IMG/VR virus record: IMGVR_UViG_3300045988_101135
Span: 66,762-130,761 of that record
DNA from: a virus
Reading direction: 5' to 3' (one strand)
Length of the DNA: 64,000 bases
In this document: positions 10,907-62,646 of the stretch, in pieces
Numbering within the stretch: the stretch's first letter is position 1
Layout of the letters: every line of letters starts with the position of its first letter
Notes under the pieces: model-generated
Seen by the model: only the letters and a program-made list of their open reading frames with translations
Told to the model about the DNA's origin: nothing
Database searches by the model: none
Translations under genes and position numbers: made by a program

Positions 10907-11270
10907 GATCCAGATCCAGGTCCTTCCGGTGGTGCGGGAGCCATAGTAAAAAATATGATTCCCGCATTCCCGTTTTTCCCGTTTGGAAAAAAAGGAATAA
11001 AAATATTATACCGGTCGGCGGGCAATAGAATACCCGTGGCCGGTTTGTTTCACATAACTTTTTTTGGGATATGAATATAGCACACGAATCTAAATCGAAT
11101 AAAACCCCATTGTATTTAATAGGAGAGTTGATTGGCGTACCGAATACGGTTATGGACTCAGCATTGCATGAACTGAAAGATAGAATAGACAAAGACCCTA
11201 AATATAAAGATGTTAAAAATTGGCTCGAATCTTTACCCAAGATCTGAACCTATTTTTTTTCAATACCAGG

Positions 11271-40753: not shown

Positions 40754-40938
40754 TCTCTATATTTCAATACAAGTGATATAATTGAAAAGGATACTGCCGT
40801 TAAAGATAACGTATATGGTAAGTTCATTAACCATCTCGGTACTTCTTCGGTCTTAATCACTATCAACAAAGTAGCACCTGCTACTACCAATAATACAATT
40901 GCCGTCGCAAGTGCTACACGGGAAACAACATCACTCAT
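40708..40938 (-). CDS. small two-TM membrane protein (76 aa)
   Basis: Two hydrophobic helices (ALATAIVLLVVAGATLLIVI; LSLTAVSFSIISLVL); fills the gap between neighbours. Confidence 0.35.
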   Translation of the reverse strand: MSDVVSRVALATAIVLLVVAGATLLIVIKTEEVPRWLMNLPYTLSLTAVSFSIISLVLKYREWKRNCTSAKDADEK

Positions 40939-41401
40939 CAGTTTTCTTTTCTCCCAATTTTTCTACACCTTTTTGCAGATCGTATTTAAACACTTCAATG
41001 ATCTTTGTTTCAGCAATAGACTCGCAATTCCAGTCTCCCAACGTACCCTGCATACCTTTAGTCAACACAGCTTCGGCGTCTTTAGGATTGCCGGCTTGGA
41101 CATACATATAGCATGGCGTTTTCTTTTCTTTACCTTTCTTTTCATCCAGTGTAATGTAATTCACCTTGCACTTATACCAGTACTCAGCTTCTCCGTTGAA
41201 AAAGATTTCTGACACTTTAATAGGGTTAATTTTTACAACCTCGAAAGAATTGTACAAATCCTTAAAGATCTCCAACGATCTTGATTCTGCCTCTGTATAA
41301 GACAAGGCATCCACCAAATACTTTTCAGTTACTTTCTTTTTTTTGCCGTTCTCGATATTATCAATCTCGGCTTTTACCGTAATTTCAAACCAGCGATTCA
41401 T
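40931..41401 (-). CDS. hypothetical protein (156 aa)
   Basis: ORF in the minus array. Confidence 0.5.
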   Translation of the reverse strand: MNRWFEITVKAEIDNIENGKKKKVTEKYLVDALSYTEAESRSLEIFKDLYNSFEVVKINPIKVSEIFFNGEAEYWYKCKVNYITLDEKKGKEKKTPCYMYVQAGNPKDAEAVLTKGMQGTLGDWNCESIAETKIIEVFKYDLQKGVEKLGEKKTDE

Positions 41402-55262: not shown

Positions 55263-55513
55263 AACTTTTTGTATTTACGTACATTTTTCTTGCCATAGAA
55301 TCTACACATGGCACGAATCTGACTATAAAATACTTTTGTCCTCCTGGCCTCAAAGTATTTAAACATTTCTTCATTCTTTGTTTCCCAAACGTAATCCGTT
55401 TGGGAACTCATGCGATCTTTCTCCTTGCGTGAATAATGGTAATATGATACCACAACACGTTTCATACCATTCTTTACAGGTACGATATTTACGTCTATAC
55501 TATTCTCTGTCAT
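55259..55513 (-). CDS. hypothetical protein (84 aa)
   Basis: ORF in the minus array. Confidence 0.4.
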   Translation of the reverse strand: MTENSIDVNIVPVKNGMKRVVVSYYHYSRKEKDRMSSQTDYVWETKNEEMFKYFEARRTKVFYSQIRAMCRFYGKKNVRKYKKL

Positions 55514-55632
55514 ATTATTATTGTTTTATGCATTATACAAATACAAAGAGCGCATACCTTCACAGGCCGGCGCTCCTTTCAATAAAAATGAAAAAACTAA
55601 TATTACATAAACATATTGTTTTCTACTCTTTA

Positions 55633-55866
55633 TTACAATACTTTTGTTCCGCAATTATTATATCTTCCGTACTCTTTTTTCGTATCATTCAAGATTTCAA
55701 AAACCATCTTCTTGTGATCTTCGTTTGGTAACCTATCCTTAACAGCCGATATTACGCCCGCTATAGACGTAAAGCCTGAATCTGTTATTGAACACAGCAA
55801 CACGCCTCTGTCGGCTCCGGTGCTTATTGCTGACGCCTTTATAATATCATTCTTATATATTCTCAT
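55633..55866 (-). CDS. hypothetical protein (77 aa)
   Basis: ORF in the minus array. Confidence 0.4.
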   Translation of the reverse strand: MRIYKNDIIKASAISTGADRGVLLCSITDSGFTSIAGVISAVKDRLPNEDHKKMVFEILNDTKKEYGRYNNCGTKVL

Positions 55867-55879
55867 AACTTTTTTGTTT

Positions 55880-55975
55880 TATTGTTTGTGAGATGCCCAG
55901 AATCGAACCAGGACCGGCACATACGCACCGGCACGCCGCGTCATCCCCTCTATGATGCAGAAATAGGCATGCCTA
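55880..55975 (-). tRNA. tRNA-like element 1 (canonical T-arm; ~95 nt; atypical body)
   Basis: The minus strand reads ...cctgg-TTCGATT-ctggg-catctcac. This is a T-stem/loop with G53, T54, T55, C56 and C61, followed by a 7-nt acceptor 3' strand. A complementary 5' strand (gtgagga) lies about 95 nt upstream. An internal 7-8 bp hairpin (ccggtgc-gtat-gtgccgg) could be a long variable arm. D and anticodon arms could not be folded by eye. Confidence 0.45.
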
Positions 55976-56041
55976 TCCTCACGAACCGACATGCCAAAAC
56001 CCAAAACTTAATTTGATGAATAAAATAGATTAACAAAAATA

Positions 56042-56356
56042 CTATTCTAATTCTTTTATAATATCTTTCACAATATTCAGCCTTACCTCCTTCGTTTCTG
56101 GACTAAGACAACCAAACCACCCATAAAACGTTCTTGTTTCCTCTGGTTCTGTGGCCATACTTATCTTCTCTTCCAATTCCGGGAAATATATTCTCACCAT
56201 TTCGTCTGAACGAAACTCATAGATATTTTTATGTGTTTTGAAATACATAAACACTACATTTCTTAACGCAACACATATGTATTCCCCATCCTCTAACCTA
56301 TCAATCATCTCATATACCTTTTTCCATATGAATAATCGCTCTTCTTTTGCAAACAT
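56042..56356 (-). CDS. hypothetical protein (104 aa)
   Basis: ORF in the minus array. Confidence 0.45.
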   Translation of the reverse strand: MFAKEERLFIWKKVYEMIDRLEDGEYICVALRNVVFMYFKTHKNIYEFRSDEMVRIYFPELEEKISMATEPEETRTFYGWFGCLSPETKEVRLNIVKDIIKELE

Positions 56357-56378
56357 ATCTTTCTTTATTTTTGTGGTA

Positions 56379-56708
56379 TTATTTGACTGTACGCAGACTT
56401 TTCCATGTACACAATACTATGTGTCCAAGTATTTTCTTTGCTGCTTCTTTCTTTATCGCGCAATATCTCCCTGTACGATACGGATTCTTTTGATCTGATC
56501 CATCCTCAACTTCGATAATAAAACAACCTCCGTCATCTATTATCTTTTTGCAATTGTCACATATTTCTCCCGTGCATATATGATGCGGCGCCTGCCCTTT
56601 GATGTTATTCCCTAATAAAGCAATCCCCATCTCTTCACCGCATACTATGCATAGTTCTATGGATGGATTCAACCCATGCTCTGGATGCAATACAATACCG
56701 TCTTTCAT
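56379..56708 (-). CDS. Cys/His-rich protein (109 aa)
   Basis: CIVCG...HHICTGEICDNC pattern. Confidence 0.45.
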   Translation of the reverse strand: MKDGIVLHPEHGLNPSIELCIVCGEEMGIALLGNNIKGQAPHHICTGEICDNCKKIIDDGGCFIIEVEDGSDQKNPYRTGRYCAIKKEAAKKILGHIVLCTWKSLRTVK

Positions 56709-57109
56709 TTTCTATCCTCCTTTATTAATTCTATTATAAACTTTTTATCTTGTTCCCACAATGGCAGCCCTTCTTTTACTGTGTATGCCACTGTTTCCCT
56801 CTCTCCTATTAATCGCACGGCAATCTCTCTTGCTTTCAAGTCATCCTCCTCATGCGATTTGTTTATTAAATCATAGGCACATGATTCCACCTTTTGCCTT
56901 TCGATTATTATCGAACCCATTAACTCGCTTATATGCGATCCTAAAAACGATAAGACATTAATAGCTTTCCCAATATCATTTGAAATAGCACTTGCTAAAT
57001 ACATCTTATCCATATACTCCGGCAAAGCCTCGTATGCCGTTTCTATGTTTTTATACTGATTTTCGTTTACCTCCCTTTTAATCAGTTCTTCAAATTCTTC
57101 TTTTAACAT
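56705..57109 (-). CDS. hypothetical protein (start trimmed to Met 57109; 134 aa)
   Basis: The track ORF (to 57256) would run through the tRNA-like element; the internal ATG (MLKEEFEEL) avoids this. Confidence 0.5.
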   Translation of the reverse strand: MLKEEFEELIKREVNENQYKNIETAYEALPEYMDKMYLASAISNDIGKAINVLSFLGSHISELMGSIIIERQKVESCAYDLINKSHEEDDLKAREIAVRLIGERETVAYTVKEGLPLWEQDKKFIIELIKEDRK

Positions 57110-57132
57110 GTTCTTCCCTATTTTAATGTTGT

Positions 57133-57199
57133 GTGAGATCGCCGGAATCGAACCGACTTGCTGCACCATGAATCCCATAAAGCAAATGCTCCGATCTTC
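57133..57199 (-). tRNA. tRNA-like element 2 (T-arm gtcgg-TTCGATT-ccggc + acceptor 3' gatctca)
   Basis: Same T-arm core (ccggaatcgaaccg on the plus strand) as elements 1 and 3. The candidate 5' acceptor strand gaagatc pairs 5 of 7. The 67-nt span is short for a canonical tRNA. Confidence 0.4.
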
Positions 57200-57256
57200 G
57201 CAGATGGGAGCATTCTGTCTAAAGCATAAGAAAATTAATGAAGAAATTTTTCTCAC

Positions 57257-57337
57257 TTACGCCATAGCATCTAAAATAGCTATCAGCACTATTTCTATGA
57301 CAAACATAATAGAAAATATCTTAAATGCCTTTTTCAT
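57257..57337 (-). CDS. unlisted 26-aa hydrophobic peptide MKKAFKIFSIMFVIEIVLIAILDAMA
   Basis: ATG preceded at 9 nt by ggagg (strong SD); the peptide is a single predicted TM helix; below the track cutoff. Confidence 0.3.
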   Translation of the reverse strand: MKKAFKIFSIMFVIEIVLIAILDAMA

Positions 57338-57444
57338 ATCGCTATCTCCTCCTTTTTATTTTTTTTAGTTCCACAATAAACTGTTCCGGCTCTGCTCCGA
57401 CCTACGTTCCACCTACAACCGCAGGCCTTAGCCCAAGGCGCCGC

Positions 57445-57714
57445 CTACTCCCCCTCTATGGCAGCCTGTTCGTACCTACAAATCCAATCTCCATCTATAC
57501 AACTATCACTACGCGATAATAAACATTTATCCTTATAACAATCATAAAAAATACACCTATCACAACTGTAATCCTTAACGTCTACACAGCTAACTACCTT
57601 AGCATATACTATTCCATCACTGCCTTCTATTCCTTTTACCCCGAAAATAGAACCTTCTACCTCCTTACTCAAATCTAAGTCAGGCGCAAAGTCATATACG
57701 TTCATACCATCCAT
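57445..57714 (-). CDS. Cys-rich small protein (89 aa)
   Basis: CVDVKDYSCDRCIFYDCYKDKC...C...C. Confidence 0.4.
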   Translation of the reverse strand: MDGMNVYDFAPDLDLSKEVEGSIFGVKGIEGSDGIVYAKVVSCVDVKDYSCDRCIFYDCYKDKCLLSRSDSCIDGDWICRYEQAAIEGE

Positions 57715-57803
57715 ATTTTAATTGTTAAACATCCCGCTTAAAAAAAAATACTCACATAATGCAGTCCTCAACCCTTAATCTGTTGGAAGGAACCTATATA
57801 ATG

Positions 57804-57889
57804 CTGTTTTAAACCCTTATCATATTGAATTTTGTGGAAATGATCTACAGAACACTGTTTTAAAACGCTTATCTATTGAATTTTGTTGG
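57804..57889. repeat. imperfect direct repeat (2 x ~34 nt): ctgttttaaa(a)c(g)cttatc(a/t)tattgaattttgt(t)gg
   Basis: Two copies at 57804-57837 and 57855-57889. Confidence 0.5.
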
Positions 57890-58000
57890 TAGGGAGTGCC
57901 CTCCCTCTCCCCCTCTCCAACCCCGGCTAATCCTCCGGCTTTCCGCATAGAACCTGCGCTCTCGGCCTCACTACCGGCATACGGAGAGCGCTACAAGCTT
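57889..58000. other. GC/CT-rich structured island (possible small RNA)
   Basis: ccctccctctccccctctcc tract followed by nested hairpins: agggag-tgcc-ctccct, ccgg-ctaatcct-ccgg, and gcgctctc-20nt-gagagcgc. Confidence 0.3.
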
Positions 58001-58420
58001 ATACTCTGGCATGAAGTATGGGGTATTTAGAGATAATATCATTCCATAGAGAGAATAGAGAGCCTTCAGCCCACGCCCTACCGCCTGCTCCTCCTATCAA
58101 GATAGATATTTAAGCCTATAATCAAAGCCAATAAAGAAAAGCAAAAGACCATTACAATATTATACTGATCCGGTCCGTACTCCAACATAGAGCGAATACC
58201 AACCGACAGAAAATACAAGTCAGCTACTAATAAAAACCACCACATAAAATAAAAAAAAAATACAATAAGTATGTCCGAAAATACGGGGATTATAAAACCT
58301 AACTAATTGATAATCAAGCATACATAATTTTTAAGAAAAGTACAATAAGCCTAATTTTCAATCCATAGAGACGAAAAAGGCGGAATCCGGAACCCTATTT
58401 TGGGCCAGAAAACCGCATAA

Positions 58421-58514
58421 AGTTTCGTTTTAGACCAATTTTAACGACATGATATAGACAAAATACCGGCATTATATCCAAACTATCCTATTTTAGTTTC
58501 GTTTTAGACCAATA
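58421..58514. repeat. 19-nt direct repeat agtttcgttttagaccaat x2, spaced 75 nt
   Basis: Exact copies at 58421-58439 and 58496-58514. Confidence 0.5.
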
Positions 58515-58618
58515 TAGCTTACATCCGCCGTTCACTCTCAGAATATCCTACCCGTAAATAGAAAGAGTAGGATACAAAAATAGGGCTGCTCCGATATTCG
58601 AAACAACCCTACTCCTGT

Positions 58619-58825
58619 TTAAATACTGTTTATGTTTTCCTTCACGTAAGTTCGTGATGTATGGACTTTACGTTTGCATTTGTCCTTTCCCGTATCGGCA
58701 TGATACGCTTCTTTGAGATCACGATACAACATAAATTCCCGATACGCTCTTTTCCGCTTTTCTTTAGCTTCTTTCCTGGACAGACCGCGGACGTCTACCA
58801 TATGAGATTTAAATTTCCTTTCCAT
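58619..58825 (-). CDS. basic small protein (68 aa)
   Basis: Isolated ORF in the non-coding hub; Lys/Arg-rich. Confidence 0.35.
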   Translation of the reverse strand: MERKFKSHMVDVRGLSRKEAKEKRKRAYREFMLYRDLKEAYHADTGKDKCKRKVHTSRTYVKENINSI

Positions 58826-59043
58826 TTTCTTTATGCTTTAATTATGATTAACTCCAGCGGTTAAGAGCTTCGATATAGAAACCCTCCGCCTCTTTATACT
58901 CATTTTCACTGAGTGTTTCCACCGTCTCGATATAGTTACGCAATGTTATTTTTACGCAGATGTTTTTAGATTTATTGAACGCTTCAGTTAAAGCGTTGAT
59001 CATTTCTTTCTTTTCCATGTTATTATATTGTTTATAATTTAGA

Positions 59044-59110
59044 GGTTGCTCCGGAATCGAACCGAACGCGCATTCCTATCCTGTACGAATTTTATGCTAC
59101 AACCAACAGC
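59044..59110 (-). tRNA. tRNA-like element 3 (T-arm ttcgg-TTCGATT-ccgga; D-arm-like gctg-ttggttg-tagc)
   Basis: Shares ccggaatcgaaccga with element 2. The ggttgt / gcaacc acceptor pairing is possible, but the spacing is non-canonical. Confidence 0.35.
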
Positions 59111-59577
59111 CCGTAATTAGTACGTAGTTCTTGTGTACAGGCCCGTACTATGTTGTTATTATATTTTCCGTCTGCTACACAACTTAGCCACAAATAAAGG
59201 CGATTGTGTCCTTGCGTTTTGATACAACATGTTCCTACATGTTAGGCTACATGTTTATACCCTGTAATTTAATCTACAGCCTTGTCCTATTTTACGTGCA
59301 GGCAAGTAAGGCACGTTTCGGTCTAGAGATAAACCGCGTACAACGGTATGTTTTCCAAACTGTACTAACATACCTAACATAACTACATTTATCCAATGTA
59401 GTACATGCAGTAATACCAGCCCTTTAATTGCCAACGGCAAGGGCAAAGGTATATCTATCTCCAATATGTAAAATAACTCTCTGTTTTGTCAGCTTCAGTC
59501 TAAAGCATACGCGGGACATGCACCCACTGACAACGGCGTACAAGCGCGTTTAAAGGTACGCGCCCAACCTTGTTTTT

Positions 59578-60779: not shown

Positions 60780-61766
60780 TTATTGAATTGAAGTAAGTTT
60801 ATGGTTTTCAAGGAAGTCCTTAAACTGGTCACTTGATACGTCTATAACGAATCCAGCAGCACCAGCATGTCCTCCACCACCGAATCTCTTACTTACCTCA
60901 CAGCAATCCGCGCTGTCTTCCACGCATTCATAAAGAGAGAACCTAACCTTACCACCTGGCATGATACAAAATGGCATAAGGGCTTTAATTTTTCTACCGT
61001 CTAACCAGTCTCGTGTAAGAGAATCAAATACTTTAGAACTAAATTCCGTAGTATTCATCGCCACGACCTTAACCTCGTCTACGTAAGCTTCGAACGAATA
61101 CGCACTTACCTCTTGTTCGTTTTTACCAGCCATGTAGTTAATTATAGCACGTCCTTCTTTAGCGAGATCATAAAAAATAAGATCAATTTCATTGTCCTTC
61201 ATATCTTCTTTAAAGTGATCATACAAATACGACAATGCTATTAATACATTGAGTCTTATTTTTGATCTCAAGGCATACTGGATAGCTACTACCGTATCCC
61301 ATCCTAATTCAGAATCTTTATTCCACACATCGTAGTCTGACAGGCACCGGACGATCGCCGGCACCTTCCCCATCAGCAGGTCCGAGGCCAGAGCGCACGC
61401 ACCGACACCGACTCTCCTCAACCCTGGAACTACGAACCCCCATGTCTTACTATCTTCGATAATCCCCTTATGATGATCTATCCACATCAGGCTCTTTCCT
61501 TCATCAAGCCATTTCTTGAAAACCGTTTTAGAATCGGCTCCGAAAGACACGTCAAGAACATAAACAACATCTAAGTCACGCACTTGGTCAACAACTTTCT
61601 TAACATCATCTTCATACGAATACGGGATATAAACAACATCCTTGTTTTTACTGTGTTCATACATAGTTGCGATGGCTGCCGACACAACGCCATCTAAATC
61701 CGATTTATGATAAACTATCGCTGTTTTCTTTACTTTCATGATACAAACTTGTATATTTGATACCAC
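60780..61766 (-). CDS. DHH-DHHA1 family phosphoesterase (NrnA/RecJ-like)
   Basis: YHKSDLDGVVSA (motif I), IDHHKG (DHH motif), C-terminal GGGHAGAAGF (DHHA1 GGGH motif). The true start is probably MKVKK at 61739. Confidence 0.7.
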   Translation of the reverse strand: MVSNIQVCIMKVKKTAIVYHKSDLDGVVSAAIATMYEHSKNKDVVYIPYSYEDDVKKVVDQVRDLDVVYVLDVSFGADSKTVFKKWLDEGKSLMWIDHHKGIIEDSKTWGFVVPGLRRVGVGACALASDLLMGKVPAIVRCLSDYDVWNKDSELGWDTVVAIQYALRSKIRLNVLIALSYLYDHFKEDMKDNEIDLIFYDLAKEGRAIINYMAGKNEQEVSAYSFEAYVDEVKVVAMNTTEFSSKVFDSLTRDWLDGRKIKALMPFCIMPGGKVRFSLYECVEDSADCCEVSKRFGGGGHAGAAGFVIDVSSDQFKDFLENHKLTSIQ

Positions 61767-62646
61767 CGTCTTTTAATGTTTCTATTTTTATAACATCACT
61801 ATATAAATTGAAATTCTGATCTTTATCAATCCTTATATTCAGCACATCATCTACGGTTGCAGTTTTTCCATCATCGGTTTCAATCTTATAAAAATCTTTT
61901 AAAGTGATTTTTATATTAAGACCAACACCATATGGATTTTCAAGGATATATATATGATCGTTGTTGAGAATAACTATTCCTTCACTTGTATGTTCTTTGG
62001 ACAATACATATTCTAAATCAAGATCTTTATCCAAAAATGTAGTAATATCCATATAGTTAATACCGGAATTATAGGCACATACCTTATCCGAATCAGAGAA
62101 CTGCCCTGGCAGACCACTGGCGTCCCCGACCATCAACGAACATCCCTTAAGTTGACTGAAGTTCATACCGCGCATTACCGTGTCTTTACACTTCATAAGA
62201 ATATCATCAATCATGCCCGTATTAGGCTTCCTCATCGGATTTTGTTCGTCATTTGAATAACACAACCTTTTTTCATATAGGACGCCTCTTATACCTCTCT
62301 TTACCGCCAGATCATGTACGGACCTCAGTACGTATTCTATCTTAGCTTCAATATCAGCTCCAGAAACAAACCCAGCTTCTACTCCTCCTTGATTGCTTAC
62401 GATAGCAAATACCTTAACACCGTTCTCCTGCATGAGGTCAAGAGCCTTATTCACCACATCCATCTTAATCCTCATATCTGTCAAGTCTGTAGCGAACGTA
62501 TTCCCAGAAGCGGTTTCTATAAGCGTTCCATCAAAATCAAACAATAATATTCGTTTGGATTTTATATCAATATCTTGTACCATATCATTCTCCTTTCTCA
62601 AACTTACTTTTCTTAATCTCTCTCGGAACCAGGCAGAACACACCAT
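61705..62646 (-). CDS. PNKP-type HAD-family polynucleotide 3'-phosphatase with unknown C-terminal domain
   Basis: FDFDGTLIETASGNTFAT (DxDGT motif I plus the PNKP-specific TxxSG), SNQGGV, RKPNTGM, MVGDASG...FSDSDKVCAYNSGINY parallel the T4 Pnk / mammalian PNKP phosphatase domain. No kinase P-loop is present. Confidence 0.65.
   Translation of the reverse strand: MVCSAWFRERLRKVSLRKENDMVQDIDIKSKRILLFDFDGTLIETASGNTFATDLTDMRIKMDVVNKALDLMQENGVKVFAIVSNQGGVEAGFVSGADIEAKIEYVLRSVHDLAVKRGIRGVLYEKRLCYSNDEQNPMRKPNTGMIDDILMKCKDTVMRGMNFSQLKGCSLMVGDASGLPGQFSDSDKVCAYNSGINYMDITTFLDKDLDLEYVLSKEHTSEGIVILNNDHIYILENPYGVGLNIKITLKDFYKIETDDGKTATVDDVLNIRIDKDQNFNLYSDVIKIETLKDGGIKYTSLYHESKENSDSLS

What the first reader, a model, noticed from the sequence alone, without database searches (positions are those of the whole stretch)
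55880..59110. Three tRNA-like elements that share a canonical T-arm but do not fold as standard cloverleaves
The 11-mer ggaatcgaacc, which on the minus strand is GGTTCGATTCC (the tRNA T-stem/loop), occurs three times in 3.2 kb. Each copy sits in an intergenic gap and is followed by a plausible 7-nt acceptor 3' strand. The upstream parts are either too long (element 1 is ~95 nt and has an 8-bp internal hairpin, so type II, selenocysteine-like or intron-containing) or too short (element 2 is ~67 nt). The options are unusual phage tRNAs such as suppressors or intron-bearing tRNAs, tRNA 3' fragments that mark former integration sites, or tRNA-like decoys or regulatory RNAs. Their position beside a 3'-phosphatase/DHH operon is suggestive of tRNA repair or decoy functions.
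Basis: seen in the sequence. Interest (0 to 1): 0.55.

Follow-up and report, generated by a model that had tools for sequence, protein, structure and literature searches.

The report
Truncated tRNA mimics between phage genes
Three short tRNA look-alikes, with only the acceptor stem and T-arm of a tRNA, sit about 22 bases upstream of three small genes of a gut Bacteroidota phage; they are conserved, belong to a wider undescribed family, and most likely act as cutting signals for the host's tRNA-processing enzymes.

Summary
Three T-arm hairpins (two exact GGTTCGATTCC, one GGTTCGATTCT) lie on the minus strand within 3.2 kb, and they are the only such hairpins in the 64-kb window (0.19 expected). 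None is a tRNA: ARAGORN default mode and Rfam find nothing.

Each element is an acceptor-like helix of 6-7 bp stacked on a canonical T-arm. There is no D-arm or anticodon loop, and the insert is 13-32 nt. A hairpin lies upstream (GNRA-capped for E1 and E2), and a 22-24 nt A-rich leader and an ATG follow.

In more than 100 related gut-phage contigs, substitutions keep the pairs. T-loops (0.5%) and acceptor strands (1.7%) change far more slowly than third codon positions (9.1%). The same module, with perfect 7-8 bp acceptor stems, occurs in several unrelated gut phage contigs. Real phage tRNAs show the same hairpin-tRNA-ORF layout.

Best reading: these are tRNA-derived "t-element"-like punctuation signals cut by RNase P and RNase Z. 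The structure and the selection are shown; the processing is inferred. Suppressor tRNAs, intron-bearing tRNAs and integration scars are not supported. The family is absent from Rfam 15 and from the GenBank annotation of the closest phage.

The parts
55966..55995 (-). E1 upstream hairpin: GGCAUGUC-G-GUUC GUGA GGAU-A-GGCAUGCC (8 bp, a 1x1 mismatch, 4 bp, GNRA tetraloop)
   Evidence: Fold and alifold. 99.7% of cells are paired in 29 distinct variants, with G.U-tolerant one-sided changes. The same apex, YGUYC-GUGA-GGAU, occurs with entirely different outer stems in other phages.
55888..55948 (-). E1 tRNA-like core: acceptor 5' strand GGGGAUG 55948-55942; connector 55941-55933; 8-bp hairpin with GUAU loop 55932-55913; T-arm CCUGG UUCGAUU CUGGG 55912-55896; acceptor 3' strand CAUCUCA 55895-55889; discriminator C 55888
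   Evidence: Coordinates checked. Pair counts. Variant L218 has GGAAUG/CAUUC, a compensatory G-C to A-U change. ARAGORN calls this element only with -i or -ps80.
55867..55887 (-). E1 A-rich leader (21 nt) up to the ATG at 55866-55864 of a 77-aa ORF
   Evidence: Sequence. In 37 relatives, homology ends at about 55872 and a different gene follows.
57185..57214 (-). E2 upstream hairpin: AAUGCUCC-C-AUCU GCGA AGAU-C-GGAGCAUU (same architecture as the E1 hairpin)
   Evidence: Inverted repeat I20. Three pairs show compensatory changes: A-U/G-C in 16 variants, U-A/C-G in 3, C-G/A-U in 1.
57133..57177 (-). E2 tRNA-like core (a minihelix): acceptor 5' strand UGGGAUU 57177-57171; 13-nt connector 57170-57158; T-arm GUCGG UUCGAUU CCGGC 57157-57141; acceptor 3' strand GAUCUCA 57140-57134; discriminator C 57133
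   Evidence: Variant L058 has three substitutions in the 3' strand (AAUUCC), all of which still pair with GGGAUU.
57110..57132 (-). E2 A-rich leader (23 nt) up to the ATG at 57109-57107 of a 134-aa ORF (phrog_15742)
   Evidence: In 65 relatives, homology ends at about 57121.
59109..59142 (-). E3 upstream hairpin GCCUGUA...UACGGGC (7-8 bp, 20-nt loop, no GNRA cap)
   Evidence: RNAalifold consensus over 60 variants. One variant shows U-A to C-G.
59043..59105 (-). E3 tRNA-like core (no D-arm): acceptor 5' strand (U)GGUUGU 59105-59099; middle hairpin 59097-59070 (GCAU/AUGC outer stem, AUUC/GGAU inner stem, 5-nt loop); T-arm UUCGG UUCGAUU CCGGA 59066-59050; acceptor 3' strand GCAACC(U) 59049-59043
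   Evidence: The RNAalifold and single-sequence minimum-free-energy folds agree. 99.4% of cells are paired, 4 pairs change on both sides, and 0/500 shuffles reach the observed score. ARAGORN calls it only at -ps80, as a poor 71-nt 'tRNA-Ile'.
59019..59042 (-). E3 A-rich trailer/leader (24 nt) up to the ATG at 59018-59016 of a 56-aa ORF. Whether the discriminator is U 59043 or C 59042 is not settled.
   Evidence: It shares the trailer UCUAAA with the phage's genuine tRNA-Cys.
58581..58611 (-). Related hairpin without a T-loop: UAGGGUUG-U-UUCGA AUA UCGGA-G-CAGCCCUA followed by UUUUUG. It may be a collapsed derivative of an E3-like acceptor/T-arm that now looks like a terminator.
   Evidence: Repeat family D5. 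The 8-mer YCGGAGCA occurs 6 times in the window against 1.7 expected. Sequence. The homology is inferred, not shown.

Best explanation
E1, E2 and E3 are tRNA-derived, tRNA-like RNA elements reduced to the part of a tRNA that processing enzymes read: an acceptor-like helix of 6-7 bp stacked on a canonical T-arm. The D-arm and a functional anticodon arm are missing.

They lie on the coding (minus) strand in a run of small genes that follows the phage's replication genes and its real tRNA cluster. Each module reads: stable hairpin (GNRA-capped in E1 and E2), a 3-17 nt spacer, the tRNA-like core, a 22-24 nt A-rich stretch, then a start codon.

Proposed mechanism (inferred):
1. The modules are transcribed as part of the mRNA.
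2. Host RNase P cuts at the 5' side of the acceptor helix. This leaves the upstream RNA ending in the protective hairpin.
3. RNase Z, or an equivalent enzyme, cuts after the discriminator. This releases the downstream mRNA with a short, unstructured A-rich 5' leader of about 21-23 nt, the leader length most common in Bacteroides mRNAs.
4. A 45-63 nt minihelix RNA is released as a by-product, or possibly as an active product.

Because the module is conserved while the flanking genes are swapped, it also marks mosaic boundaries.

Shown here: the T-arm, the strand-specific RNA pairing, purifying selection on the T-loop and acceptor strands, membership of a wider family, and the shared layout with real tRNAs.

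Inferred here: transcription through the element, cleavage by RNase P and RNase Z, and the roles of the hairpin and the leader.
For: 1. Only three T-arm hairpins occur in the window, all on the gene strand.

2. Substitutions in relatives preserve the pairs.
- E3: 99.4% of cells paired, 4 pairs changed on both sides, 0/500 shuffles.
- E2: 99.3% paired, 4 pairs changed on both sides, 0/500 shuffles.
- E1: 99.1% paired, with many G.U intermediates that would be C.A mismatches on the other strand.
- Variants L058 and L218 keep or compensate the acceptor helix.

3. Selection in loci fetched through the DHH protein, independently of the motif:

| Site class | Mismatch |
|---|---|
| Third codon positions | 9.1% |
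| First and second codon positions | 3.0% |
| T-loops | 0.5% |
| Acceptor strands | 1.7% |
| Whole cores | 6.3% |

The minihelix is therefore constrained while the middle is nearly free. In those loci the T-loop varies only at position 59. Over all loci fetched, most T-loop changes are at positions 59-60 or are a purine-to-purine change at 57, with one change at 55. This is close to the pattern of real tRNAs.

4. Family. The same module occurs in several unrelated gut phage contigs with quite different, perfectly paired 7-8 bp acceptor stems. Over 19 members, 93% of cells are paired against 60% in shuffles, and 10 of 12 pairs change on both sides.

5. Real tRNAs share the layout.
- In this phage lineage a GUGA hairpin precedes tRNA-Met and tRNA-Arg, and tRNA-Cys is followed 18 nt later by an ATG.
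- In other phages the same hairpin abuts genuine tRNA-Gln or tRNA-Glu.

6. The leader left after a cut at the discriminator would be 21-23 nt. In B. thetaiotaomicron most mRNAs have a 23-nt 5' UTR and A-rich, Shine-Dalgarno-less leaders (PMC7366714).

7. A helix of acceptor stem plus T-arm is the minimal substrate of RNase P, RNase Z and the CCA-adding enzyme (established knowledge).
Against: - There is no transcript data. Cleavage, and even co-transcription, are unproven.
- The acceptor helices of E1-E3 have only 6-7 bp, include G.U pairs, and are individually not significant against shuffles.
- The three cores are not thermodynamically unusual (z between -0.3 and +0.4).
- All relatives of E1-E3 are about 93-97% identical, so most of their stems show few independent changes. 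The cross-family alignment used 5' strands that I picked by complementarity.
- A TAnnTTTG-type box lies upstream of E1 (56041) and near-matches precede some family members. The module could therefore be a 5' UTR with its own promoter rather than an internal punctuation mark.
- Some upstream hairpins resemble true terminators. If they terminate efficiently, that argues against read-through.
- The DUF4494 gene has such an element in other phages but none in this window, so the element is dispensable for that gene.
Confidence: 0.5

Rival explanations
1. The elements are made in order to be released. The excised minihelix RNAs of 45-63 nt act in trans as tRNA mimics. They might be decoys or sponges for a host enzyme or defence nuclease that reads the acceptor/T-arm, or substrates for CCA addition or aminoacylation. 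They could be linked to the phage's own PNK 3'-phosphatase/DHH genes and tRNA cluster.
For: The parts under strongest selection are exactly those that proteins read on a tRNA. One family type encodes a complete ACCA 3' end (type B). Some contigs carry tandem arrays of such elements, like tRNA arrays. PNK3P and DHH/NrnA-like genes and four real tRNAs lie 1.7-7 kb upstream.
Against: The elements have no anticodon loop, so they cannot decoy anticodon nucleases. PNK3P and DHH do not lie within about 5 kb of family members in other phages. G3.U70 occurs in E1 and E2 but is lost in variants and in other family types, so there is no conserved aminoacylation identity. The constant position just upstream of start codons is explained better by a cis role.
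Confidence: 0.2
2. The elements are decaying tRNA pseudogenes, remnants of a once larger tRNA array. They have no present function, and their conservation only reflects the close relatedness of the available genomes.
For: Real tRNAs with the same hairpin-tRNA-ORF layout lie nearby. The middle domains differ between E1, E2 and E3 and evolve almost neutrally. The acceptor helices are imperfect. The hairpin at 58611-58581 looks like a further collapsed copy.
Against: T-loops and acceptor strands change about 17 and 5 times more slowly than third codon positions in the same genomes. Stem substitutions are pair-preserving. T-loop variation is almost confined to the positions that are free in real tRNAs. 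Armless versions with perfect acceptor stems recur in unrelated phages.
Confidence: 0.1
3. The conserved sequence works at the DNA level. It could be a phage-specific promoter or operator, or simply a stretch of homology that mediates recombinational shuffling of gene cassettes, as the promoter-stem-loop cassettes of T4-type phages do.
For: Homology between relatives breaks 12-16 nt after the E1 and E2 elements and just inside the ORF after E3, and different genes follow. The modules sit between small genes of unknown function. No standard TAnnTTTG promoter lies between the hairpin and the ATG, so some other start signal might be present.
Against: Pairing is kept through G.U intermediates that work only in minus-strand RNA. 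Conservation follows tRNA rules (T54-A58 fixed, position 59 free) rather than a DNA-site pattern. Across the family the stems covary while their sequences differ completely. Mosaic boundaries are an expected by-product of any conserved intergenic block.
Confidence: 0.08
4. The elements are functional but non-canonical decoding tRNAs: suppressor, type II or Sec-like, intron-containing, or D-armless as in animal mitochondria.
For: ARAGORN with intron search reports a tRNA-Val(GAC) with a 21-nt intron for E1. At 80% thresholds it reports tRNA-Thr for E1 and tRNA-Ile for E3. A relative in other phages (the L036 type) is called a D-armless tRNA-Met(CAU) in mitochondrial mode.
Against: ARAGORN default mode and Rfam tRNA, tmRNA and intron models are all negative. 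E2 has no room for an anticodon arm. E1's middle hairpin has a tetraloop and E3's a 5-nt loop. Substitutions in relatives do not maintain ARAGORN's E3 anticodon stem. A 21-nt intron does not fit bacterial tRNA introns, which are group I introns of hundreds of nt (established knowledge). The L036-type loop is CACAUAA and lacks U33.
Confidence: 0.02
5. The elements are tRNA 3' fragments: attP-type cores or scars of former integration into host tRNA genes.
For: T-arm plus acceptor 3' strand is what attP sites in tRNA genes typically retain (established knowledge).
Against: Each element has a matching 5' strand and is under RNA-level selection. There are three copies in 3.2 kb. No integrase or recombinase domain was found in the ORFs scanned. 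The phage resembles a 151-kb phage whose record annotates no integrase in the regions viewed. Identity to a host tRNA was not tested.
Confidence: 0.03

Closest known systems
t-elements of plant mitochondria (tRNA-like structures that serve as RNase P / RNase Z cleavage signals at mRNA ends)
   Same: They are non-decoding tRNA mimics embedded in transcripts at gene boundaries, with acceptor/T-arm features retained and the rest degenerate. The proposed role is the same: defining mRNA 5' and 3' ends with the tRNA-processing machinery.
   Different: The setting is different: a dsDNA phage of Bacteroidota. Here a GNRA-capped hairpin is a fixed partner and a start codon follows 22-24 nt downstream. 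Cleavage has been shown for t-elements but not here. The comparison rests on my knowledge of that literature, not on a test.
mascRNA / MALAT1 and MEN-beta tRNA-like elements (mammals)
   Same: The order is the same: a stabilising structure, then a tRNA-like element. RNase P cleavage creates the 3' end of the upstream RNA, which the structure protects. RNase Z and CCA addition then release a small tRNA-like RNA.
   Different: mascRNA is a near-complete cloverleaf, and the upstream protector is a triple helix rather than a hairpin. The setting is a eukaryotic nucleus, and no downstream ORF is served.
tRNA punctuation of animal mitochondrial transcripts, and phage or bacterial operons that mix tRNAs and mRNAs (as in this phage's own Met-Gln-Arg-Cys cluster followed by an ORF)
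   Same: tRNA-shaped units between coding regions are excised to separate mRNAs. In relatives of this phage a genuine tRNA-Cys sits 18 nt upstream of an ATG.
   Different: Those units are functional tRNAs. E1-E3 cannot decode.
tRNA minihelix and the tRNA-like domain of tmRNA
   Same: The architecture is a 12-bp coaxial acceptor/T-stem helix with a T-loop and no anticodon arm. The only Rfam matches to family members are weak hits to the tRNA-like ends of tmRNA models.
   Different: There is no tag reading frame or pseudoknots, G3.U70 with A73 is not conserved, and scores are far below the gathering thresholds.
D-armless tRNAs of nematode and mite mitochondria
   Same: The D-arm is replaced by a few nucleotides. 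ARAGORN's mitochondrial mode calls one family member (the L036 type) a 64-nt tRNA-Met(CAU).
   Different: E1-E3 have no 7-nt anticodon loop. The L036-type loop lacks U33. A bacterial host has none of the specialised factors these tRNAs need.
PeSL (promoter-early stem-loop) cassettes of T4-type phages
   Same: They are conserved intergenic cassettes containing a stem-loop, placed between small early genes, and they coincide with mosaic exchange points.
   Different: PeSLs are a terminator plus a promoter and have no tRNA-like part. No promoter could be identified here. This comparison is from memory.

Membership tests
Canonical tRNA (Rfam RF00005; ARAGORN default) | Cloverleaf with a D-arm and an anticodon arm carrying a 7-nt loop; score above the model threshold | tested here: not met
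   ARAGORN finds 0 genes in the window. Rfam at gathering thresholds finds 0 families. There is no RF00005 hit even at E<=10 in 55500-59500. None of the first 175 related loci fetched has E1-E3 called as a tRNA, although their real tRNAs are called.
Canonical tRNA (Rfam RF00005; ARAGORN default) | T-arm: 5-bp stem, loop T54 T55 C56 R57 A58 N N, G53-C61 | tested here: met
   All three elements meet it. Variation in relatives falls almost entirely at positions 59-60.
Canonical tRNA (Rfam RF00005; ARAGORN default) | 7-bp acceptor stem directly adjoining the T stem | tested here: inconclusive
   E2 has 7 bp (5 Watson-Crick, 2 G.U). E1 and E3 have 6 bp. Shuffle p is 0.04-0.18 or 0.07-0.4 with a free register. 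Variants L058 and L218 keep the pairing.
Intron-containing bacterial tRNA (group I intron in the anticodon loop) | A group I intron (hundreds of nt, detectable by Rfam) interrupting an otherwise complete tRNA | tested here: not met
   Rfam gives no intron hit. ARAGORN's 'intron' in E1 is 21 nt, and its model reuses one arm of the upstream hairpin.
tmRNA | tRNA-like domain plus a tag reading frame and pseudoknots | tested here: not met
   ARAGORN finds no tmRNA, either in the default scan of the whole window or with -m -ps80 on 55500-59500. The only Rfam match is 17 nt of T-arm, 9.9 bits, E = 5.
tRNA-gene attP core or integration scar | A 3' tRNA fragment only, next to an integrase | tested here: not met
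   A 5' acceptor strand is present and maintained. The ORFs scanned show no integrase domain.
tRNA-gene attP core or integration scar | Sequence identity to the 3' end of a host tRNA gene | not tested
t-element / mascRNA-type processing signal | Non-decoding acceptor/T-arm mimic within a longer transcript, at a gene boundary | tested here: met
   Structure and selection. Position: 22-24 nt upstream of the ATG, on the gene strand. That the element lies within a transcript is inferred.
t-element / mascRNA-type processing signal | Cleavage by RNase P at the 5' side and by RNase Z at the 3' side | not testable with these tools
   This needs RNA end-mapping or enzyme assays.
D-armless (mitochondrial-type) tRNA | Acceptor, anticodon arm with a 7-nt loop, and T-arm, with a D-replacement loop | tested here: not met
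   ARAGORN -mt at default thresholds calls none of E1-E3. The middle domains are a tetraloop hairpin, a 13-nt connector and a 5-nt-loop hairpin. Only the L036-type relative is called.
YrlA / bacterial Y-RNA-like tRNA mimics, and other curated RNA families | A match to the Rfam covariance model | tested here: not met
   No such hit at E<=10 in the region, nor at E<=1 in five family loci.
New family proposed here: GNRA hairpin plus armless tRNA-like element upstream of an ORF in Bacteroidota phages | Hairpin with apex YGUYC-GNRA-GGAU, a short spacer, a 6-8 bp acceptor helix, a T-arm, an A/C-rich tail and an ATG within about 20-45 nt | tested here: met
   E1 meets every feature, including the exact apex GUUC-GUGA-GGAU. 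E2 has the same architecture with a covarying apex, AUCU-GCGA-AGAU. E3 has the core but a different upstream hairpin.

The most novel reading that the evidence does not exclude
Gut Bacteroidota phages carry a previously undescribed class of armless tRNA mimics. Host tRNA enzymes excise them, and they then act in trans as 45-65 nt minihelix RNAs, possibly CCA-tailed. In that role they could titrate or redirect a host protein that reads the acceptor/T-arm, such as RNase P, the CCA-adding enzyme, a T-loop modification enzyme, EF-Tu, or a tRNA-directed defence system. They would then be a new kind of phage small RNA rather than mere punctuation.
Probability: 0.15. Interest if true: 0.85.

Novelty: new variant of a known kind. 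Interest (0 to 1): 0.6.

Why it matters
If the proposed mechanism holds, phages of the dominant gut phylum use stripped-down tRNA mimics to cut their transcripts into units. In doing so they would borrow RNase P and RNase Z, as organelles and some mammalian long non-coding RNAs do. That would add a post-transcriptional layer to phage gene expression in Bacteroidota, where Shine-Dalgarno-less translation makes the exact 5' leader important.

It would also explain why tRNA-like sequences that no tRNA finder calls recur in gut viromes, and it would provide a compact, portable processing module for Bacteroides genetics.

The work also corrects annotation. In the nearest GenBank phage the elements are unannotated, and E1 is overlapped by a "hypothetical protein" CDS.

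Finally, it shows that the acceptor/T-arm half of a tRNA can be kept under selection on its own. This bears on minihelix models of tRNA function.

Tried and rejected
- **ARAGORN in relaxed, intron, mitochondrial and tmRNA modes.** The relaxed calls are mutually inconsistent: Val with a 21-nt intron, Thr, Ile. At 70-90% thresholds many obvious false positives appear, so I rejected them as evidence for tRNAs.
- **Rfam at E<=10.** Only chance-level hits appeared (snoRNAs, RT-14). One was a weak BTnc231 match that is really just the GUGA-capped hairpin.
- **Long-range closing helices suggested by single-sequence folding.** These were E1 GUUUUGGG/CUCACAAAC or GUGAGG/UCUCAC, and E2 GUGAGA/UCUCAC. 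I rejected them because the 5' partner mutates without compensation in E2 (GUAAUA variant) and variant L218 breaks the E1 alternative.
- **The idea that the upstream hairpin is specific to tRNA-like elements.** The genome scan showed the same apex on ordinary terminator-like hairpins in Prevotella and Bacteroidaceae chromosomes.
- **A family covariance model.** MAFFT could not align the variable-length middle domains. A model built on spliced sequences would not tolerate inserts of 13-49 nt. I used spliced pair counts and shuffle tests instead. My first shuffle test wrongly demanded contiguity at pair 7-66 and was replaced.
- **A link to the PNK3P/DHH genes.** tblastn found neither gene near family members in other phages.
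- **A G3.U70 alanine identity in E1 and E2.** It is not conserved in variants or in other family types.
- **Literature searches.** Three searches for tRNA-like elements in phages, and one for the phage's name, returned nothing relevant.
- **The sigma-70 promoter and terminator scan.** It was uninformative for a Bacteroidota-type system.

Full report
**What is in the sequence**

On the minus strand, GGTTCGATTCC occurs exactly twice, at 57144-57154 and 59053-59063 (none expected). A third copy at 55899-55909 has one mismatch, GGTTCGATTCT.

I scanned both strands for a 5-bp stem closing a GTTCRANNC loop. The scan finds these three sites and no others in 64 kb. Shuffled sequence gives a mean of 0.19 and a maximum of 2. 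I call them E1 (55.9 kb), E2 (57.1 kb) and E3 (59.05 kb).

All genes in this part of the window run on the minus strand. Each element ends 22-24 nt before a start codon.

**They are not tRNAs**

- ARAGORN default mode finds no tRNA or tmRNA in the window.
- Rfam finds no family at gathering thresholds.
- A permissive Rfam search of 55500-59500 (E<=10) gives no tRNA or intron hit. It returns only a 17-nt T-arm match to a tmRNA model at E = 5.
- Relaxed ARAGORN modes give mutually inconsistent calls. E1 is called tRNA-Val with a 21-nt "intron" or a 64-nt tRNA-Thr, and E3 a 71-nt tRNA-Ile with poor stems. E2 is called only in the mitochondrial mode at a 90% threshold, amid dozens of obvious false positives.
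- Substitutions in relatives do not maintain ARAGORN's anticodon stem for E3.

**Genomic setting**

The window is about 94% identical to phage csAssE-Sib (OR575929; 151 kb, human gut). That record annotates tRNA-Cys, -Arg, -Gln and -Met about 6-7 kb upstream of E3 in the direction of transcription. This lies just beyond the end of the window.

The record leaves E1-E3 unannotated, and a "hypothetical protein" CDS overlaps E1. ARAGORN finds the same four tRNAs in related IMG/VR contigs but never calls E1-E3.

Upstream of E3 lie a DHH/NrnA-like phosphoesterase (60780-61766) and a protein with a polynucleotide-kinase 3'-phosphatase domain (61705-62646). Typical Bacteroidota promoter boxes (TAnnTTTG) occur before several genes in the window (consensus from PMC7366714). 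The host is therefore very probably a member of the Bacteroidota.

**Anatomy**

Each element is an acceptor-like helix that directly adjoins a canonical T-arm. A variable insert takes the place of the D and anticodon arms.

| Element | Acceptor 5' / 3' strands | Insert | T-arm |
|---|---|---|---|
| E1 | (G)GGGAUG / CAUCUC(A) | 9-nt connector plus an 8-bp hairpin with a GUAU loop | CCUGG UUCGAUU CUGGG |
| E2 | UGGGAUU / GAUCUCA | 13-nt connector only | GUCGG UUCGAUU CCGGC |
| E3 | GGUUGU / GCAACC | 28-nt hairpin with a 5-nt loop | UUCGG UUCGAUU CCGGA |

A stable hairpin lies 3-17 nt upstream of each core. In E1 and E2 the hairpins share one architecture: 8 bp, a 1x1 mismatch, 4 bp and a GNRA tetraloop (GUUC-GUGA-GGAU and AUCU-GCGA-AGAU). 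Many of the pairs are G.U, which would be C.A mismatches on the other strand. The structures therefore belong to the minus-strand RNA.

**Evidence from close relatives**

Two exact-pattern scans of IMG/VR and one protein-anchored scan returned more than 200 loci from the same phage group. I extracted the elements with upstream anchors that do not include the T-loop, then counted pairs with the tool.

| Element | Cells paired | Pairs changed on both sides | Shuffles reaching the score |
|---|---|---|---|
| E3 | 99.4% | 4 (inner stem of the middle hairpin, and the T stem) | 0/500 |
| E2 | 99.3% | 4 | 0/500 |
| E1 | 99.1% | 1 (L218: GGAAUG/CAUUC) | control uninformative (500/500) |

- In E2 the upstream hairpin switches A-U to G-C in 16 variants.
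- In E1 most variation is one-sided through G.U pairs. This makes the shuffle control uninformative for E1.
- In E2 variant L058, three substitutions in the 3' acceptor strand all keep pairing.
- Taken alone, the acceptor helices of E1-E3 are weak against shuffles, and the cores are not unusually stable.

**Selection**

I used only loci fetched through the DHH protein, which are unbiased with respect to the motif. Mismatch to the window is shown below.

| Site class | Mismatch |
|---|---|
| Third codon positions of the seven flanking ORFs | 9.1% |
| First and second codon positions | 3.0% |
| The three T-loops | 0.5% |
| The six acceptor strands | 1.7% |
| Whole cores | 6.3% |

The acceptor/T-arm half is thus under strong constraint, while the middle is nearly free.

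In this set the T-loop changes only at position 59. In the larger set the other changes are at position 60, a purine-to-purine change at 57, and one change at 55. This is close to the variability pattern of genuine T-loops. It argues against neutral decay and against a DNA-level signal.

**A wider family**

One relative (L036) carries a fourth element with a perfect 7-bp acceptor stem (UGGGACG/CGUCCCA). Only 31 nt separate that stem from the T stem, and the E1-type GUGA hairpin precedes it.

I scanned IMG/VR for that hairpin apex followed by a T-loop. The hits include at least seven further sequence types in unrelated gut-phage contigs. All have the same order of parts: hairpin, 2-8 nt, a perfectly paired 7-8 bp acceptor of quite different sequence, a reduced middle, a T-arm, an A/C-rich tail and an ATG.

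- ARAGORN's standard mode calls none of them. Its mitochondrial mode calls the L036 type a D-armless tRNA-Met(CAU).
- Rfam gives only weak matches to the tRNA-like ends of tmRNA models.
- I spliced together the acceptor and T-arm of 19 members. In that alignment 93% of cells pair, against 60% in shuffles, and 10 of 12 pairs change on both sides. There is a caveat: I chose the 5' strands by complementarity. The T-stem pairs were fixed by the loop, and they covary strongly.
- One contig has three such modules in tandem.

**Relation to real tRNAs and to terminators**

In other phages the same GUGA hairpin directly abuts genuine tRNA-Gln or tRNA-Glu.

In this phage lineage similar hairpins precede tRNA-Met and tRNA-Arg. 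tRNA-Cys is followed by UCUAAAAAAA and then an ATG 18 nt downstream. E3 shares that UCUAAA trailer.

In Prevotella and Bacteroidaceae chromosomes the apex CGUCC-GUGA-GGAUA caps ordinary terminator-like hairpins followed by T-runs. The hairpin is therefore a general Bacteroidales stable stem-loop, not something unique to these elements.

The simplest history is that hairpin-plus-tRNA units were duplicated, and that the tRNA part was whittled down to the portion that still matters.

**Mechanism**

A coaxial acceptor/T-stem helix with a T-loop is what RNase P, RNase Z and the CCA-adding enzyme recognise (established knowledge). I therefore propose that E1-E3 are cis processing signals.

1. RNase P cuts at the 5' side. 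The upstream RNA is left ending in the protective hairpin.
2. A 3' cut after the discriminator frees the downstream mRNA.
3. The leader that remains would be about 21-23 nt long and A-rich.

In B. thetaiotaomicron most mRNAs have a 23-nt 5' UTR, and translation depends on A-rich, Shine-Dalgarno-less leaders (PMC7366714). This numerical fit, and the identical layout after the real tRNA-Cys, are the main indirect supports.

Nothing here shows transcription or cleavage. There are three open points:
- A TAnnTTTG box lies upstream of E1, and near-matches precede some family members, so some modules may be 5' UTRs with their own promoter.
- Some of the hairpins may terminate transcription.
- The DUF4494 gene has such an element in other phages but not in this window, so the element is not indispensable.

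**Other observations that bear on function**

- Between relatives, homology breaks 12-16 nt after E1 and E2 and just inside the ORF after E3, and different genes follow. The modules are therefore mosaic boundaries. I regard this as a consequence of their conservation.
- The PNK3P and DHH genes do not accompany family members elsewhere, so a dedicated tRNA-repair link is not supported.
- A trans role for the released minihelix RNAs cannot be excluded. One family type even encodes ACCA.

**Comparison with known systems, and novelty**

In function, the closest analogues are:
- plant mitochondrial t-elements;
- the mascRNA/MALAT1 arrangement;
- tRNA punctuation of organellar transcripts.

In structure, the closest analogues are tRNA minihelices, the tRNA-like domain of tmRNA, and D-armless mitochondrial tRNAs.

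E1-E3 fail the tests for tRNA, tmRNA, intron-bearing tRNA and integration scar. They match no Rfam 15 family. Three literature searches for tRNA-like elements in phages found nothing relevant.

I class the finding as a new variant of a known kind: tRNA-like processing elements in a new host-virus setting and with a characteristic partner hairpin.

**Confidence**

| Claim | Confidence |
|---|---|
| Selected, tRNA-derived RNA structures | about 0.85 |
| The RNase P / RNase Z punctuation mechanism | about 0.5 |

Noticed in passing
window 57257-57337 (-): A 26-codon ORF encodes a very hydrophobic peptide, MKKAFKIFSIMFVIEIVLIAILDAMA. It lies behind AAGGAGGAG, immediately upstream of the E2 module. 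It is too short for the ORF list and is highly conserved in relatives (about 96-99% identity over most of its length).
   Followed up: partly
window 57715-58618: This is a stretch of about 900 nt with no convincing ORF. It contains a perfect 19-nt direct repeat (58421-58439 and 58495-58513), a 22-nt repeat pair (57756-57777 and 57798-57819) and a polypurine run near 57896-57920. The linear GenBank record OR575929 ends inside it (window about 58537). Many IMG/VR contigs end here or about 200-300 nt after the DHH gene. It may be a genome terminus, a packaging site or origin, or an assembly-breaking repeat.
   Followed up: partly
window 55966-55995; loci L420, L433, L442, L383, L485 and many of L253-L370: The hairpin apex CGUCC-GUGA-GGAUA (or YGUYC-GNRA-GGAU) recurs on otherwise unrelated stems. 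It is found on terminator-like hairpins in Prevotella and Bacteroidaceae chromosomes and upstream of tRNAs and tRNA-like elements in gut phages. Why the apex itself is conserved is unexplained.
   Followed up: partly
window 58581-58611 (-): A hairpin followed by UUUUUG and a TATTTTTG box has a sequence that looks like E3's acceptor/T-arm with the T-loop collapsed. It shares UCGGAGCA with E3. YCGGAGCA occurs 6 times in the window against 1.7 expected, five of them between 54.6 and 59.1 kb.
   Followed up: partly
window 59112-59577 (-): A 466-nt stretch upstream of E3 is conserved (mostly 83-98% in 25-nt bins, with one bin at 74%) and apparently non-coding. OR575929 annotates it as a hypothetical CDS. 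Rfam gives only chance-level hits there (RT-14, snR41).
   Followed up: no
window 60780-62646 (-); OR575929 6667-7027: A gene with a PNK 3'-phosphatase domain and a DHH/NrnA-like phosphoesterase gene overlap each other. They lie between the phage's tRNA cluster (Met, Gln, Arg-CCT, Cys, just outside the window) and the tRNA-like elements. No RNA ligase was seen among the ORFs scanned.
   Followed up: partly
L263 1-530: Three hairpin-plus-tRNA-like modules sit in tandem in an unrelated 7-kb viral contig. Their acceptor stems are GGGACGUG/CACGUCCC, UGGAGC/GCUCCA and UGGUCGCA/UGCGACCA. Neither ARAGORN nor Rfam calls any of them at threshold. The middle one gives a weak match to the two ends of the tmRNA model.
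   Followed up: partly
L276 1164-1213: There is a sub-threshold match (29 bits, E = 0.007) to the Rfam DUF2693-FD RNA. Its consensus is also a 7-bp closing stem with a 5-bp, 7-nt-loop hairpin next to the 3' strand. It lies about 700 nt downstream of a family member.
   Followed up: no
window 40931-41401 (-); L036 about 10950-11150: In other phages the DUF4494 gene is preceded by the hairpin plus a D-armless 'tRNA-Met-like' element. In this window the same gene has only a 12-nt spacer, so the module is gained or lost as a unit.
   Followed up: yes
relatives of E1 (for example L038 866-1000, and one variant): One variant has lost exactly the 14 nt between the direct repeats GUGCCGGU, which removes E1's middle hairpin. 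Another carries a 22-nt tandem duplication within the upstream hairpin. The T-arm and acceptor strands are untouched in the deletion variant.
   Followed up: partly
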